From Escherichia phage T7: 39,218 nt of DNA. The translations under genes were made by a program, and so were the position numbers. The notes below the pieces were generated by a model. The model was not told the origin of the DNA and searched no databases. It saw only the letters and a list, made by a program, of their open reading frames with translations. The stretch lies in sequence record MZ375237.1. One strand, written 5' to 3'. This document shows, in pieces, positions 751-9,557 of the stretch. Numbering within the stretch: position 1 is the stretch's first letter; the number at the start of each line of letters is the position of its first letter.

Positions 751-858
751 TGAAACGACAGTGAGTCACCACACTGAAAGGTGATGCGGTCTAACGAAAC
801 CTGACCTAAGACGCTCTTTAACAATCTGGTAAATAGCTCTTGAGTGCATGACTAGCGG

Positions 859-900
859 ATAACTCAAGGGTATCGCAAGGTGCCCTTTATGATATTCACT
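859..900 (+). promoter_or_regulatory. RNase III processing hairpin R0.3
   Basis: ctcaaggg...ccctttatgat imperfect hairpin of the same family as R1.1/R1.3/R4.7/R18.5. Confidence 0.6.
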
Positions 901-924
901 AATAACTGCACGAGGTAACACAAG

Positions 925-1278
925 ATGGCTATGTCTAACATGACTTACAACAACGTTTTCGACCACGCTTACGAAATGCTGAAAGAAAACATCCGTTATG
1001 ATGACATCCGTGACACTGATGACCTGCACGATGCTATTCACATGGCTGCCGATAATGCAGTTCCGCACTACTACGCTGACATCTTTAGCGTAATGGCAAG
1101 TGAGGGCATTGACCTTGAGTTCGAAGACTCTGGTCTGATGCCTGACACCAAGGACGTAATCCGCATCCTGCAAGCGCGTATCTATGAGCAATTAACGATT
1201 GACCTCTGGGAAGACGCAGAAGACTTGCTCAATGAATACTTGGAGGAAGTCGAGGAGTACGAGGAGGATGAAGAGTAA
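925..1278 (+). CDS. 0.3: Gene 0.3 Ocr, anti-restriction DNA-mimic protein
   Basis: 117-aa highly acidic [20 protein letters not shown]...EEYEEDEE; first gene after A1-A3. Confidence 0.95.
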
Positions 1279-1409
1279 TGTCTACTACCAACGTGCAATA
1301 CGGTCTGACCGCTCAAACTGTACTTTTCTATAGCGACATGGGGCGGCGTGGCATAGACGAAAGGAAAAGGTTAAAGCCAAGAAACTCGCCGCACTTGAAC
1401 AGGCACTAG
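1278..1409 (+). pseudogene. 0.4: Truncated gene 0.4 remnant: first 21 codons fused at a deletion junction to 22 foreign codons
   Basis: ATG overlaps 0.3 stop (taATG); [21 protein letters not shown] matches gp0.4 N-terminus, then diverges after about 1341. Confidence 0.6.
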
Positions 1410-1457
1410 CCAACACACTGAACGCTATCTCATAACGAACATAAAGGACACAATGCA

Positions 1458-2537
1458 ATGAACATTACCGACATCATGAACGCTATCGACGCAATCAAAG
1501 CACTGCCAATCTGTGAACTTGACAAGCGTCAAGGTATGCTTATCGACTTACTGGTCGAGATGGTCAACAGCGAGACGTGTGATGGCGAGCTAACCGAACT
1601 AAATCAGGCACTTGAGCATCAAGATTGGTGGACTACCTTGAAGTGTCTCACGGCTGACGCAGGGTTCAAGATGCTCGGTAATGGTCACTTCTCGGCTGCT
1701 TATAGTCACCCGCTGCTACCTAACAGAGTGATTAAGGTGGGCTTTAAGAAAGAGGATTCAGGCGCAGCCTATACCGCATTCTGCCGCATGTATCAGGGTC
1801 GTCCTGGTATCCCTAACGTCTACGATGTACAGCGCCACGCTGGATGCTATACGGTGGTACTTGACGCACTTAAGGATTGCGAGCGTTTCAACAATGATGC
1901 CCATTATAAATACGCTGAGATTGCAAGCGACATCATTGATTGCAATTCGGATGAGCATGATGAGTTAACTGGATGGGATGGTGAGTTTGTTGAAACTTGT
2001 AAACTAATCCGCAAGTTCTTTGAGGGCATCGCCTCATTCGACATGCATAGCGGGAACATCATGTTCTCAAATGGAGACGTACCATACATCACCGACCCGG
2101 TATCATTCTCGCAGAAGAAAGACGGTGGCGCATTCAGCATCGACCCTGAGGAACTCATCAAGGAAGTCGAGGAAGTCGCACGACAGAAAGAAATTGACCG
2201 CGCTAAGGCCCGTAAAGAACGTCACGAGGGGCGCTTAGAGGCACGCAGATTCAAACGTCGCAACCGCAAGGCACGTAAAGCACACAAAGCTAAGCGCGAA
2301 AGAATGCTTGCTGCGTGGCGATGGGCTGAACGTCAAGAACGGCGTAACCATGAGGTAGCTGTAGATGTACTAGGAAGAACCAATAACGCTATGCTCTGGG
2401 TCAACATGTTCTCTGGGGACTTTAAGGCGCTTGAGGAACGAATCGCGCTGCACTGGCGTAATGCTGACCGGATGGCTATCGCTAATGGTCTTACGCTCAA
2501 CATTGATAAGCAACTTGACGCAATGTTAATGGGCTGA
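1458..2537 (+). CDS. 0.7: Gene 0.7 Ser/Thr protein kinase, host shutoff
   Basis: 359-aa [20 protein letters not shown]... with very basic C-terminal region; matches gp0.7. Confidence 0.93.
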
Positions 2538-2544
2538 TAGTCTT

Positions 2545-2595
2545 ATCTTACAGGTCATCTGCGGGTGGCCTGAATAGGTACGATTTACTAACTGG
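2545..2595 (+). promoter_or_regulatory. Intergenic region expected to hold RNase III site R1 and minor host promoter C
   Basis: Placed by collinearity with T7; hairpin not resolved confidently by eye. Confidence 0.35.
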
Positions 2596-2607
2596 AAGAG
2601 GCACTAA

Positions 2608-5259
2608 ATGAACACGATTAACATCGCTAAGAACGACTTCTCTGACATCGAACTGGCTGCTATCCCGTTCAACACTCTGGCTGACCATTACGGTGAGCGT
2701 TTAGCTCGCGAACAGTTGGCCCTTGAGCATGAGTCTTACGAGATGGGTGAAGCACGCTTCCGCAAGATGTTTGAGCGTCAACTTAAAGCTGGTGAGGTTG
2801 CGGATAACGCTGCCGCCAAGCCTCTCATCACTACCCTACTCCCTAAGATGATTGCACGCATCAACGACTGGTTTGAGGAAGTGAAAGCTAAGCGCGGCAA
2901 GCGCCCGACAGCCTTCCAGTTCCTGCAAGAAATCAAGCCGGAAGCCGTAGCGTACATCACCATTAAGACCACTCTGGCTTGCCTAACCAGTGCTGACAAT
3001 ACAACCGTTCAGGCTGTAGCAAGCGCAATCGGTCGGGCCATTGAGGACGAGGCTCGCTTCGGTCGTATCCGTGACCTTGAAGCTAAGCACTTCAAGAAAA
3101 ACGTTGAGGAACAACTCAACAAGCGCGTAGGGCACGTCTACAAGAAAGCATTTATGCGAGTTGTCGAGGCTGACATGCTCTCTAAGGGTCTACTCGGTGG
3201 CGAGGCGTGGTCTTCGTGGCATAAGGAAGACTCTATTCATGTAGGAGTACGCTGCATCGAGATGCTCATTGAGTCAACCGGAATGGTTAGCTTACACCGC
3301 CAAAATGCTGGCGTAGTAGGTCAAGACTCTGAGACTATCGAACTCGCACCTGAATACGCTGAGGCTATCGCAACCCGTGCAGGTGCGCTGGCTGGCATCT
3401 CTCCGATGTTCCAACCTTGCGTAGTTCCTCCTAAGCCGTGGACTGGCATTACTGGTGGTGGCTATTGGGCTAACGGTCGTCGTCCTCTGGCGCTGGTGCG
3501 TACTCACAGTAAGAAAGCACTGATGCGCTACGAAGACGTTTACATGCCTGAGGTGTACAAAGCGATTAACATTGCGCAAAACACCGCATGGAAAATCAAC
3601 AAGAAAGTCCTAGCGGTCGCCAACGTAATCACCAAGTGGAAGCATTGTCCGGTCGAGGACATCCCTGCGATTGAGCGTGAAGAACTCCCGATGAAACCGG
3701 AAGACATCGACATGAATCCTGAGGCTCTCACCGCGTGGAAACGTGCTGCCGCTGCTGTGTACCGCAAGGACAAGGCTCGCAAGTCTCGCCGTATCAGCCT
3801 TGAGTTCATGCTTGAGCAAGCCAATAAGTTTGCTAACCATAAGGCCATCTGGTTCCCTTACAACATGGACTGGCGCGGTCGTGTTTACGCTGTGTCAATG
3901 TTCAACCCGCAAGGTAACGATATGACCAAAGGACTGCTTACGCTGGCGAAAGGTAAACCAATCGGTAAGGAAGGTTACTACTGGCTGAAAATCCACGGTG
4001 CAAACTGTGCGGGTGTCGATAAGGTTCCGTTCCCTGAGCGCATCAAGTTCATTGAGGAAAACCACGAGAACATCATGGCTTGCGCTAAGTCTCCACTGGA
4101 GAACACTTGGTGGGCTGAGCAAGATTCTCCGTTCTGCTTCCTTGCGTTCTGCTTTGAGTACGCTGGGGTACAGCACCACGGCCTGAGCTATAACTGCTCC
4201 CTTCCGCTGGCGTTTGACGGGTCTTGCTCTGGCATCCAGCACTTCTCCGCGATGCTCCGAGATGAGGTAGGTGGTCGCGCGGTTAACTTGCTTCCTAGTG
4301 AAACCGTTCAGGACATCTACGGGATTGTTGCTAAGAAAGTCAACGAGATTCTACAAGCAGACGCAATCAATGGGACCGATAACGAAGTAGTTACCGTGAC
4401 CGATGAGAACACTGGTGAAATCTCTGAGAAAGTCAAGCTGGGCACTAAGGCACTGGCTGGTCAATGGCTGGCTTACGGTGTTACTCGCAGTGTGACTAAG
4501 CGTTCAGTCATGACGCTGGCTTACGGGTCCAAAGAGTTCGGCTTCCGTCAACAAGTGCTGGAAGATACCATTCAGCCAGCTATTGATTCCGGCAAGGGTC
4601 TGATGTTCACTCAGCCGAATCAGGCTGCTGGATACATGGCTAAGCTGATTTGGGAATCTGTGAGCGTGACGGTGGTAGCTGCGGTTGAAGCAATGAACTG
4701 GCTTAAGTCTGCTGCTAAGCTGCTGGCTGCTGAGGTCAAAGATAAGAAGACTGGAGAGATTCTTCGCAAGCGTTGCGCTGTGCATTGGGTAACTCCTGAT
4801 GGTTTCCCTGTGTGGCAGGAATACAAGAAGCCTATTCAGACGCGCTTGAACCTGATGTTCCTCGGTCAGTTCCGCTTACAGCCTACCATTAACACCAACA
4901 AAGATAGCGAGATTGATGCACACAAACAGGAGTCTGGTATCGCTCCTAACTTTGTACACAGCCAAGACGGTAGCCACCTTCGTAAGACTGTAGTGTGGGC
5001 ACACGAGAAGTACGGAATCGAATCTTTTGCACTGATTCACGACTCCTTCGGTACCATTCCGGCTGACGCTGCGAACCTGTTCAAAGCAGTGCGCGAAACT
5101 ATGGTTGACACATATGAGTCTTGTGATGTACTGGCTGATTTCTACGACCAGTTCGCTGACCAGTTGCACGAGTCTCAATTGGACAAAATGCCAGCACTTC
5201 CGGCTAAAGGTAACTTGAACCTCCGTGACATCTTAGAGTCGGACTTCGCGTTCGCGTAA
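2608..5259 (+). CDS. 1: Gene 1, T7 RNA polymerase
   Basis: 883-aa ORF MNTINIAKNDFSDIELAAIPFNTLADHYGERLAREQLALEHESYEMGEARFRKMFERQ... ending ...SDFAFA. Confidence 0.98.
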   Translation: MNTINIAKNDFSDIELAAIPFNTLADHYGERLAREQLALEHESYEMGEARFRKMFERQLKAGEVADNAAAKPLITTLLPKMIARINDWFEEVKAKRGKRPTAFQFLQEIKPEAVAYITIKTTLACLTSADNTTVQAVASAIGRAIEDEARFGRIRDLEAKHFKKNVEEQLNKRVGHVYKKAFMRVVEADMLSKGLLGGEAWSSWHKEDSIHVGVRCIEMLIESTGMVSLHRQNAGVVGQDSETIELAPEYAEAIATRAGALAGISPMFQPCVVPPKPWTGITGGGYWANGRRPLALVRTHSKKALMRYEDVYMPEVYKAINIAQNTAWKINKKVLAVANVITKWKHCPVEDIPAIEREELPMKPEDIDMNPEALTAWKRAAAAVYRKDKARKSRRISLEFMLEQANKFANHKAIWFPYNMDWRGRVYAVSMFNPQGNDMTKGLLTLAKGKPIGKEGYYWLKIHGANCAGVDKVPFPERIKFIEENHENIMACAKSPLENTWWAEQDSPFCFLAFCFEYAGVQHHGLSYNCSLPLAFDGSCSGIQHFSAMLRDEVGGRAVNLLPSETVQDIYGIVAKKVNEILQADAINGTDNEVVTVTDENTGEISEKVKLGTKALAGQWLAYGVTRSVTKRSVMTLAYGSKEFGFRQQVLEDTIQPAIDSGKGLMFTQPNQAAGYMAKLIWESVSVTVVAAVEAMNWLKSAAKLLAAEVKDKKTGEILRKRCAVHWVTPDGFPVWQEYKKPIQTRLNLMFLGQFRLQPTINTNKDSEIDAHKQESGIAPNFVHSQDGSHLRKTVVWAHEKYGIESFALIHDSFGTIPADAANLFKAVRETMVDTYESCDVLADFYDQFADQLHESQLDKMPALPAKGNLNLRDILESDFAFA

Positions 5260-7447: not shown

Positions 7448-8029
7448 TGGGACTGTTAGATGGTGAAGCCTGGGAAAAAGAAAACCCGCCAGTACAAGCA
7501 ACTGGGTGTATAGCTTGCTTAGAGAAAGATGACCGTTATCCACACACCTGTAACAAAGGAGCTAACGATATGACCGAACGTGAACAAGAGATGATCATTA
7601 AGTTGATAGACAATAATGAAGGTCGCCCAGATGATTTGAATGGCTGCGGTATTCTCTGCTCCAATGTCCCTTGCCACCTCTGCCCCGCAAATAACGATCA
7701 AAAGATAACCTTAGGTGAAATCCGAGCGATGGACCCACGTAAACCACATCTGAATAAACCTGAGGTAACTCCTACAGATGACCAGCCTTCCGCTGAGACA
7801 ATCGAAGGTGTCACTAAGCCTTCCCACTACATGCTGTTTGACGACATTGAGGCTATCGAAGTGATTGCTCGTTCAATGACCGTTGAGCAGTTCAAGGGAT
7901 ACTGCTTCGGTAACATCTTAAAGTACAGACTACGTGCTGGTAAGAAGTCAGAGTTAGCGTACTTAGAGAAAGACCTAGCGAAAGCAGACTTCTATAAAGA
8001 ACTCTTTGAGAAACATAAGGATAAATGTT

Positions 8030-9137: not shown

Positions 9138-9557
9138 GTGGAACTGCGGGAGAAAATCCTTGAGCGAATCAAGGTGACTTCCTCTGGGTGTTGGGAGTGG
9201 CAGGGCGCTACGAACAATAAAGGGTACGGGCAGGTGTGGTGCAGCAATACCGGAAAGGTTGTCTACTGTCATCGCGTAATGTCTAATGCTCCGAAAGGTT
9301 CTACCGTCCTGCACTCCTGTGATAATCCATTATGTTGTAACCCTGAACACCGTTCCATAGGAACTCCAAAAGAGAACTCCACTGACATGGTAAATAAGGG
9401 TCGCTCACACAAGGGGTATAAACTTTCAGACGAAGACGTAATGGCAATCATGGAGTCCAGCGAGTCCAATGTATCCTTAGCTCGCACCTATGGTGTCTCC
9501 CAACAGACTATTTGTGATATACGCAAAGGGAGGCGACATGGCAGGTTACGGCGCTAA
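9138..9557 (+). CDS. 2.8: Gene 2.8, HNH-endonuclease-like protein (GTG start)
   Basis: HNH-type motif HSCDNPLCCNPEH; clear paralog of gene 7.7. Confidence 0.85.
   Translation: MELREKILERIKVTSSGCWEWQGATNNKGYGQVWCSNTGKVVYCHRVMSNAPKGSTVLHSCDNPLCCNPEHRSIGTPKENSTDMVNKGRSHKGYKLSDEDVMAIMESSESNVSLARTYGVSQQTICDIRKGRRHGRLRR

What the first reader, a model, noticed from the sequence alone, without database searches (positions are those of the whole stretch)
1278..1409. Chimeric 43-codon ORF created at the early-region deletion junction
The frame stays open across the junction: [21 protein letters not shown] + GRRGIDERKRLKPRNSPHLNRH, stop at 1407..1409. It keeps the gene 0.4 start and translational coupling to ocr (taATG), so a small basic fusion peptide is probably made. 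The tail may be the C-terminal end of the 0.6B frame, but I cannot verify that from memory.
Basis: inference. Interest (0 to 1): 0.35.

Follow-up and report, generated by a model that had tools for sequence, protein, structure and literature searches.

The report
Leftover fusion ORF at T7 deletion
This is an ordinary by-product of a laboratory deletion in phage T7: the first 21 codons of gene 0.4 run into 22 out-of-frame codons from the next surviving gene remnant, giving a small, probably translated and probably useless peptide.

Summary
Window 1278..1409 (+) is a 43-codon [24 protein letters not shown]|GRRGIDERKRLKPRNSPHLNRH. It spans a deletion junction at 1341/1342 in phage T7 and keeps gene 0.4's start, which overlaps the 0.3 stop (TAATG).

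That reference frame is an artefact. V01146 lacks one A after base 1896. Every resequenced T7 has it, including undeleted sibling clones of the same experiment, and so do seven related phages.

With the A, the real ORF is 72 codons ending ...[30 protein letters not shown], conserved at 89-97% amino-acid identity. The fusion tail is its +1 frame. That frame has internal stops in three relatives.

The deletion is 564 bp against the true parent. It lies within an imperfect 12-nt direct repeat. It removes helix 2 of gp0.4, genes 0.5 and 0.6A, most of the 72-codon ORF, E. coli promoter B and an RNase III-type hairpin.

The same junction is in 31 GenBank T7 mutant clones, and a sister junction is in 10. 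All appear to come from a CRISPR genome-reduction study, and none annotates the ORF. Translation is inferred, not shown. Function is unlikely. Interest is low.

The parts
925..1278 (+). Gene 0.3 (ocr), intact. Its TAA stop (1276-1278) overlaps the ATG of the fusion ORF by one base.
   Evidence: Sequence identical to V01146 over this stretch.
1261..1268 (+). GAGGAGGA Shine-Dalgarno-like run upstream of the gene 0.4 / fusion ORF start, unchanged from wild type.
   Evidence: Sequence. Mean unpaired probability of 1260-1283 is 0.49 in the window against 0.53 in the parent.
1278..1340 (+). Codons 1-21 of gene 0.4 ([21 protein letters not shown]). This is roughly helix 1 of the two-helix FtsZ inhibitor gp0.4.
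   Evidence: Identical to V01146 1278-1340. phrog_7202 hit over residues 3-26, profile positions 2-25 of 50. gp0.4 architecture from PMC13423816.
1341..1352 (+). Deletion junction: the retained, right-hand-type copy (GGGCGGCGTGGC) of an imperfect 12-nt direct repeat. G1341 can be assigned to either side.
   Evidence: Left flank GGTGCGCTGTGGC and right flank GGGCGGCGTGGC. Ten sibling records carry the left-hand-type junction GGTGCGCTGTGGC with the same deletion length.
1341..1409 (+). 22 tail codons (GRRGIDERKRLKPRNSPHLNRH) plus the TAG stop. Identical to the annotated 0.6B C-terminus of V01146, but it is the +1 frame of the real conserved ORF.
   Evidence: Frame analysis.
1343..1435 (+). Orphaned 3' remnant of the conserved 72-codon ORF (0.6B/0.65/0.62): its last 30 codons [30 protein letters not shown] plus TAA. 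No ORF of 20 aa or more ends at this stop in the window.
   Evidence: No ORF ending at 1435 appears. Conservation in 7 related phages.
1458..2537 (+). Gene 0.7 protein kinase, intact. It now starts 49 nt after the fusion ORF's stop.
   Evidence: RBS accessibility 0.71 against 0.66 in the parent.

Best explanation
The window is a laboratory genome-reduced derivative of phage T7. A 564-bp stretch (563 bp against the 1983 reference) was lost by illegitimate recombination inside an imperfect 12-nt direct repeat, G(T/G)GCG(C/G)(T/C)GTGGC. The loss runs from codon 22 of gene 0.4 to codon 42 of the conserved 72-codon ORF that follows 0.6A. Gene 0.4's ribosome-binding site, its ATG overlapping the 0.3 stop and its first 21 codons are untouched. 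Ribosomes should therefore still initiate there (inferred), cross the junction, read 22 codons in the +1 frame of the downstream ORF remnant and stop at TAG 1407-1409. The product would be a 5.0-kDa peptide with pI 10.9. It lacks gp0.4's second helix and five of its six tested FtsZ-contact residues, so it should not inhibit cell division. Its basic tail is not a natural protein segment. The resemblance to '0.6B' exists only because the 1983 reference sequence misses one A after base 1896. The ORF is a neutral by-product of the deletion and was not itself selected.
For: Shown:
- The ORF and its translation.
- The deletion endpoints.
- The imperfect repeat and its two junction alleles, in 31 and 10 records.
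- The identical junction occurs only in 'Mutant Escherichia phage T7 clone T7_nnS/L' records, and OL964739-41 carry the sister junction.
- The CiPGr paper describes undesigned large losses 'gp0.3-0.6' and designed whole-gene deletions (PMC9825161). The second deletion in the window removes exactly the gene 1.4 CDS.
- The extra A after 1896 is in all resequenced T7 and is stated in PMC2680503.
- Seven related phages keep a base at that column and the ...NAIS frame at 89-97% aa identity.
- Variable columns fall 47/19/12 on codon positions 3/1/2 of the real frame. They fall 13 of 19 on position 2 of the fusion frame, which has internal stops in UFV01, 04922B and Kvp1.
- gp0.4 substitutions V15A, V22A, W28A, M32A, L35A and Y39A each abolish toxicity; W28L and L35P also abolish FtsZ binding in the two-hybrid assay (PMC13423816). 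The fusion keeps only V15.
- Sister lineages of the same experiment solved the region differently. T7_40L has a 14-codon [17 protein letters not shown], and T7_20L has a 0.3-0.7 fusion.

Inferred:
- Translation of the ORF. The initiation region is unchanged, gp0.4 is known to be made in wild-type infection, and RBS accessibility is unchanged.
Against: There is no direct evidence of translation or of peptide stability. The exact 43-aa sequence, and its sister variant, are absent from a 15-billion-protein collection. None of the 41 GenBank records annotates it. The junction persisted in clones up to late transfers, which could be read as selection, though clonal descent explains it. The link between the MZ3752xx records and the CiPGr paper rests on clone naming and content, because the accession table (Supplementary Table S10) was not readable here.
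Confidence: 0.85

Rival explanations
1. One reading: the fusion joins two genuine protein segments, the gp0.4 N-terminus and the true C-terminal 22 residues of gp0.6B, in frame.
For: 22 of 22 identity with the C-terminus of CAA24388/NP_041957, 'possible gene 0.6B', and the same stop codon. The tail hits the last 22 positions of phrog_8393 at E = 3e-8.
Against: The annotated tail depends on a base missing only from V01146/V01127/NC_001604. All resequenced T7, including undeleted clones of the same experiment, carry an extra A after 1896, and seven related phages have a base at that column. The conserved frame is ...[30 protein letters not shown]. The fusion frame has stops in three relatives and a substitution pattern that does not fit coding sequence. 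The PHROG match is explained if the old RefSeq protein is a member of that family.
Confidence: 0.04
2. The fusion peptide is functional and was selected. For example, a basic peptide that binds nucleic acid, or a gp0.4-derived decoy that keeps the CapRel-contact residues but not FtsZ binding.
For: The junction is present in 31 + 10 sequenced clones across many transfers. The residues mapped to the CapRel(Ebc) contact face (A12, T14, L16, S19, R23) are all retained; R23 is retained by coincidence of the imperfect repeat.
Against: The clones share descent within one experiment, so the counts are not independent. Parallel lineages have a 14-codon ORF or a 0.3-0.7 fusion instead, so no common peptide is required. 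The hosts of that experiment (MG1655 with Cas9) are not known to carry CapRel(Ebc). The paper reports genome reduction as mostly detrimental for T7. The tail frame has no evolutionary history as coding sequence.
Confidence: 0.04
3. The ORF is open on paper, but no peptide accumulates. Either initiation is weak in the new mRNA context, or the 43-aa product is degraded at once.
For: No proteomic evidence exists. Such a peptide is half of a helical hairpin fused to a disordered basic tail, typically a protease substrate (general knowledge). The deletion also removes the RNase III-type hairpin that normally ends the 0.3-0.4 mRNA, so the mRNA context downstream changes.
Against: The upstream 1277 nt match the reference except for T162C and A405G, and the first 63 nt of the ORF are unchanged. 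Predicted RBS accessibility is unchanged. gp0.4 is demonstrably produced from this start in wild-type T7 (escape genetics in PMC13423816).
Confidence: 0.3

Closest known systems
T7 gp0.4, the 51-aa FtsZ inhibitor (Kiro et al. 2013; PMC13423816)
   Same: Same start codon, same coupling to gene 0.3, and identical first 21 residues. It still hits phrog_7202 at E = 1.8e-9 over its N-terminal half.
   Different: It lacks residues 22-51, which include the second helix and FtsZ-interface residues V22, W28, M32, L35 and Y39. Net charge changes from about -2.5 to about +4.7. It is a truncated allele, not a functional member.
T7 'possible gene 0.6B' (CAA24388 / NP_041957) and the real 72-codon ORF (0.6B of GU071091, '0.65' of V01127, '0.62' of Kvp1)
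   Same: The tail is read from the same DNA and equals the last 22 residues of the 1983 annotation.
   Different: The real ORF, present in resequenced T7 and in 7 related phages, reads this DNA in another frame...[30 protein letters not shown]. The fusion tail is the +1 frame.
Spontaneous early-region deletions of T7 between short direct repeats (Studier 1973 and later; Cunningham et al. 1997; PMC8923235)
   Same: A non-essential class I region is lost, the junction lies in a short repeat, one repeat copy is retained, and such losses recur during laboratory passage.
   Different: The repeat here is imperfect (9 of 12 matches, 5-nt perfect core) and is not the best repeat available; a perfect 10-mer pair, CAATGGCACA, was not used. 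The endpoints differ from the classic ~1.4-1.5-kb 0.3-0.7 deletion. The likely trigger is escape from Cas9 cleavage rather than heat or host adaptation.
CiPGr genome-reduced T7 clones (Yuan et al. 2022, PMC9825161; GenBank MZ3752xx, OL96473x)
   Same: An identical junction is in 31 records. The second deletion (gene 1.4 CDS exactly) matches the 'cassette-gene' design. The paper reports undesigned 'gp0.3-0.6' fragment loss.
   Different: No record of 39218 bp is in the collection searched. The window looks like an earlier member of the series, with only these two deletions. The link between accessions and paper could not be checked because the supplement is not held.

Membership tests
gp0.4 family (phrog_7202; T7 FtsZ inhibitor) | Sequence homology to the family profile | tested here: met
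   phrog_7202 E = 1.8e-9, but only residues 3-26 against profile positions 2-25 of 50. Full gp0.4 gives 4.6e-33 over positions 2-50.
gp0.4 family (phrog_7202; T7 FtsZ inhibitor) | Complete two-antiparallel-helix hairpin of about 51 aa | tested here: not met
   Only residues 1-21 are gp0.4, and the rest is unrelated sequence. Architecture from PMC13423816.
gp0.4 family (phrog_7202; T7 FtsZ inhibitor) | FtsZ-interface residues V15, V22, W28, M32, L35 and Y39, each required for toxicity | tested here: not met
   Only V15 is present. Positions 22, 28, 32, 35 and 39 are G, E, L, R and H in the fusion.
gp0.6B / conserved 72-codon ORF (phrog_8393) | Tail identical to the annotated 0.6B C-terminus of NC_001604/V01146 | tested here: met
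   22 of 22 residues and the same stop codon. phrog_8393 profile positions 88-111, E = 2.5e-8.
gp0.6B / conserved 72-codon ORF (phrog_8393) | Tail read in the frame that is conserved among T7 relatives and open in the true parent | tested here: not met
   The parent and 7 relatives read ...NAIS in another frame. The fusion frame has stops in 3 relatives, and 13 of 19 variable sites fall on its codon position 2.
Repeat-mediated spontaneous deletion in T7 | Short direct repeat at both endpoints, with one copy kept at the junction | tested here: met
   Imperfect 12-nt repeat (9 of 12 matches, GTGGC core). Both the left-type and the right-type junction alleles were recovered in sibling clones.
Designed CiPGr deletion (cassette-gene or cassette-100) | Endpoints at CDS boundaries (whole gene) or a 100-bp internal deletion | tested here: not met
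   The 564-bp deletion starts inside 0.4 and ends inside the 72-codon ORF. By contrast, the 156-bp deletion at window 7044/7045 is exactly the gene 1.4 CDS.
Expressed small protein | Direct evidence of translation (ribosome footprints or peptide) | not testable with these tools
   Only sequence-level indicators are available: an unchanged SD/ATG and unchanged predicted accessibility. The peptide is absent from the protein collection.

The most novel reading that the evidence does not exclude
The 43-aa peptide is made in infected cells and has an activity of its own. One version: a half-gp0.4 that keeps the CapRel-contact face (A12, T14, L16, S19, R23) but cannot bind FtsZ, acting as a decoy or modulator. 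Another: a basic nucleic-acid-binding peptide that affects early gene expression. In either version it contributed to the persistence of this junction through hundreds of transfers.
Probability: 0.03. Interest if true: 0.3.

Novelty: already known. Interest (0 to 1): 0.08.

Why it matters
For biology it matters little. It is a junction artefact in an engineered and passaged T7 clone, and the deletion itself is already in 31 public records.

Two practical points follow.
1. Anyone using these genome-reduced T7 clones as 'gene 0.4-0.6 deleted' chassis should know that a 43-codon ORF with a native, probably active start remains, unannotated, between 0.3 and 0.7. They should also know that 0.3, this ORF and 0.7 probably now share one mRNA, because the RNase III-type hairpin and promoter B are gone.
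2. The RefSeq/1983 annotation of the 0.6B C-terminus is a frame artefact of a missing base, and it still propagates: the PHROG 8393 profile carries that tail.

Tried and rejected
- Rfam scan of 800-1700 at E <= 1 found nothing.
- A sigma-70 promoter and intrinsic terminator scan of 1150-1550 found nothing created at the junction.
- Pfam found no family for the fusion, gp0.4 or the 72-aa ORF above noise.
- Literature searches for accessions MZ375240 and MZ375233 gave no hits. The CiPGr supplement with the accession table is not held, so the link between records and paper is by clone naming and content only.
- I tried to fetch MZ375237 as a candidate identical record. It is not in the collection.
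- I considered that the deletion was a designed cassette deletion. Rejected, because the endpoints are inside ORFs.
- I considered simple 1-nt microhomology end-joining. I replaced this with an imperfect-repeat model after finding the alternative junction allele in 10 sibling clones.
- I considered that the strongest local repeat drove the event. Rejected: a perfect 10-mer pair, CAATGGCACA, exists and was not used.
- The minus-strand ORF 1285..1458 (57 aa, TTG start) crosses the junction too. T7 has no annotated leftward genes, so I treated it as chance.

Full report
**What the window is.** The window is phage T7. Against the 1983 reference V01146 (39,937 bp) it aligns end to end at more than 99.9% identity, with two gaps:
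- 563 bp missing between reference 1341/1342 and 1904.
- 156 bp missing that are exactly the gene 1.4 CDS (reference 7608-7763; window junction 7044/7045).

**The observation.** The ORF listing gives a 43-aa ATG ORF at 1278..1409 (+).
- Residues 1-21 are the start of gene 0.4. The window equals the reference up to 1341 apart from two base changes, T162C and A405G.
- The 0.3 stop TAA (1276-1278) overlaps the ATG (1278-1280).
- A GAGGAGGA run lies at 1261-1268.
- The tail equals the last 22 residues of the annotated 'possible gene 0.6B', which ends at reference 1972. Since 1972 - 563 = 1409, the stop is the same.

The ORF is not improbable. Two of the three frames downstream of the junction stay open for 22 and 30 codons.

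**The twist: the reference frame is wrong.** The resequenced T7+ (AY264774) places gene 0.7 one base later than V01146. Direct comparison puts a single extra A in AAGGA[A]CAAG after base 1896, with no other difference between records over 800-3300. Several lines agree:
- Every T7 record other than the V01146/V01127/NC_001604 trio has this A. That includes MZ375233 and MZ375234, undeleted clones from the same experiment as the window's relatives.
- With the A, an ORF of 72 codons (AY264774 1781-1999) reads MTERTD...[37 protein letters not shown].
- Seven related phages have the same ORF at 89-97% amino-acid identity: YpP-R, C5, UFV01, 04922B, Bas102, NC-A and Kvp1.
- In the DNA alignment only V01146 has a gap at that column.
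- Variable columns fall 47/19/12 on codon positions 3/1/2 of this frame. In the fusion ORF's frame, 13 of 19 variable sites fall on position 2, and that frame contains internal stops in UFV01, 04922B and Kvp1.
- The 72-aa protein is in the public protein collection on 333 contigs. One source (UniRef, D1LVC4_BPT7) names it '0.6B protein'.

So the ...GRRGIDERKRLKPRNSPHLNRH ending of RefSeq 0.6B is an artefact of one missing base. In the window, the real remnant is [30 protein letters not shown] at 1343..1435, with no upstream start codon in that frame. The fusion ORF reads the same DNA in the +1 frame.

**The deletion.** Against the true parent type (T7_10L, MZ375233) the loss is 564 bp, with window 1341 aligned to parent 1905.
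- The flanks are ...GACATGGTGCGCTGTGGCTTT... on the left and ...GAGAGGGCGGCGTGGCATAG... on the right.
- They share an imperfect 12-nt repeat, G(T/G)GCG(C/G)(T/C)GTGGC.
- The window keeps the right-hand version, GGGCGGCGTGGC.
- Ten sibling records keep the left-hand version with the same deletion length: MZ375261, 73, 77, 82, 83, 88 and 89, and OL964739-41. Their ORF is [43 protein letters not shown].
- Two alleles at one repeat fit either segregation of one mismatched heteroduplex or two crossovers at opposite ends of the repeat. I cannot tell which.
- It is not the best repeat in the region; a perfect 10-mer pair was not used.

The deleted interval contains:
- gene 0.4 codons 22-51;
- gene 0.5 and gene 0.6A;
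- codons 1-41, and part of codon 42, of the 72-codon ORF;
- E. coli promoter B at 1514;
- a strong hairpin at reference ~1428-1479 (-25.4 kcal/mol, z = -3.0).

From my knowledge of Dunn and Studier 1983, that hairpin is RNase III site R0.5. By inference, 0.3, the fusion ORF and 0.7 now lie on one processed early mRNA.

**Provenance.**
- The identical junction occurs in 31 GenBank records, all described as 'Mutant Escherichia phage T7 clone T7_nnS/L'.
- The gene 1.4 deletion is shared by these records and by a sister lineage.
- Yuan et al. 2022 (PMC9825161) describe CRISPR/Cas9-based iterative genome reduction of T7. Their 'cassette-gene' design deletes whole genes. They also report undesigned large losses, including 'gp0.3-0.6', and attribute some of the undesigned losses to CRISPR-escape mutations.
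- The exact gene 1.4 excision fits the designed class. The 564-bp loss fits the undesigned class.
- I could not read the accession table, so this link is strong but circumstantial.
- Other lineages of the series handled the region differently. T7_40L lost 676 bp against V01146 at the imperfect repeat CTGA(C/A)CGCT, leaving a 14-codon [18 protein letters not shown]7_20L carries an in-frame 0.3-0.7 fusion annotated as kinase.
- No particular junction peptide is common to these lineages, which argues against selection for the 43-aa product.
- No record annotates the ORF, and the exact peptide is absent from the 15-billion-protein collection.

**What the ORF probably does.** The entire upstream region and the first 63 nt of the ORF are unchanged, apart from T162C and A405G far upstream.
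- The computed mean unpaired probability of the 0.4 RBS window is 0.49, against 0.53 in the parent. For the 0.7 RBS it is 0.71, against 0.66.
- gp0.4 is produced from this start in wild-type infection. T7 escapes CapRel(Ebc) by mutating gene 0.4 (PMC13423816).
- I therefore infer that the fusion ORF is translated.
- The product would be 5.0 kDa with pI 10.9.
- gp0.4 is predicted to be two antiparallel helices. Single substitutions at V15, V22, W28, M32, L35 or Y39 abolish its toxicity, and the escape substitutions W28L and L35P also abolish FtsZ binding in a yeast two-hybrid assay.
- The fusion keeps only V15, so loss of FtsZ inhibition is the expected phenotype.
- As a curiosity, the residues mapped to the CapRel contact face (A12, T14, L16, S19, R23) are all retained. 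R23 is retained by accident of the repeat.
- Nothing new was created at the junction: no sigma-70-like promoter, no terminator-like site and no Rfam family.
- PHROG searches show the chimera cleanly. phrog_7202 (gp0.4) matches residues 3-26, and phrog_8393 matches residues 20-43. The latter match reflects the old RefSeq tail inside that profile.

**Comparison and verdict.** This is a truncated allele of gene 0.4 fused to out-of-frame sequence. It arose from a repeat-mediated deletion in the non-essential early region, a class of event known in T7 since the 1970s and seen repeatedly in passage experiments (PMC8923235). It is not a functional member of the gp0.4 family, since its defining interface residues are absent. 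It is not a piece of the real 0.6B/0.65 protein, since the frame is wrong. The deletion is already public. The ORF is unannotated but trivial. Interest is low. The only points worth carrying forward are the annotation caveat about the NC_001604 0.6B tail and the fact that 'Δ0.4-0.6' chassis clones retain a probably translated 43-codon ORF.

Noticed in passing
window 7044/7045 (V01146 7608-7763 missing): The gene 1.4 CDS has been removed exactly (156 bp), as expected for a designed whole-gene deletion. It also replaces the first three bases (TAA, which overlap the 1.4 stop) of T7 promoter phi1.5 with TTT, so the promoter now reads TTTTACGACTCACTAAAGGAGG.
   Followed up: partly
window 405 (also 162): A405G changes the initiating base of T7 promoter phiOL from A to G, giving the consensus TATAGGGAGA start. 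T162C lies in the left-end region. Both are absent from V01146 and from the undeleted sibling clone T7_10L. A405G may be an up-promoter or replication-origin adaptation.
   Followed up: partly
V01146/NC_001604 1796-1972 (corresponds to window 1341-1409): The RefSeq 'possible gene 0.6B' C-terminus is a frame artefact of a missing A after base 1896. The real ORF (72 codons...[10 protein letters not shown]) is conserved in 7 related phages. The PHROG 8393 profile still carries the artefactual tail.
   Followed up: yes
window 3158, 9352-9353, 15330, 32300, 33453, 35542, 38887: Changes relative to the undeleted sibling T7_10L: RNA polymerase Q184R, gene 2.8 L72R (a dinucleotide TA>GT change, possibly a Cas9 protospacer-escape mutation), DNA polymerase R566H, gp16 G809S and A1193V, tail fibre gp17 N546K, and one intergenic C>A near the right end.
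   Followed up: partly
deleted interval, V01146 ~1428-1479 and 1514: The deletion removes a strong hairpin (-25.4 kcal/mol, z = -3.0), which from memory is RNase III site R0.5, and the minor E. coli promoter B. Genes 0.3 and 0.7, normally on separate processed mRNAs, should now share one.
   Followed up: partly
L008 (MZ375261) 1320-1335; L004 (MZ375239) 1305-1313; L005 (MZ375235) 925-1620: Sibling clones carry other solutions at the same locus. One is an alternative allele of the same junction (VRC instead of GRR at residues 22-24). Another is a 676-bp deletion at the repeat CTGA(C/A)CGCT, leaving a 14-codon ORF. A third is a 1481-bp deletion that fuses 0.3 in frame to the 3' part of 0.7.
   Followed up: partly
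window 1285-1458, minus strand: A 57-codon TTG ORF on the opposite strand also spans the junction. T7 has no annotated leftward genes, so I treated it as chance.
   Followed up: no
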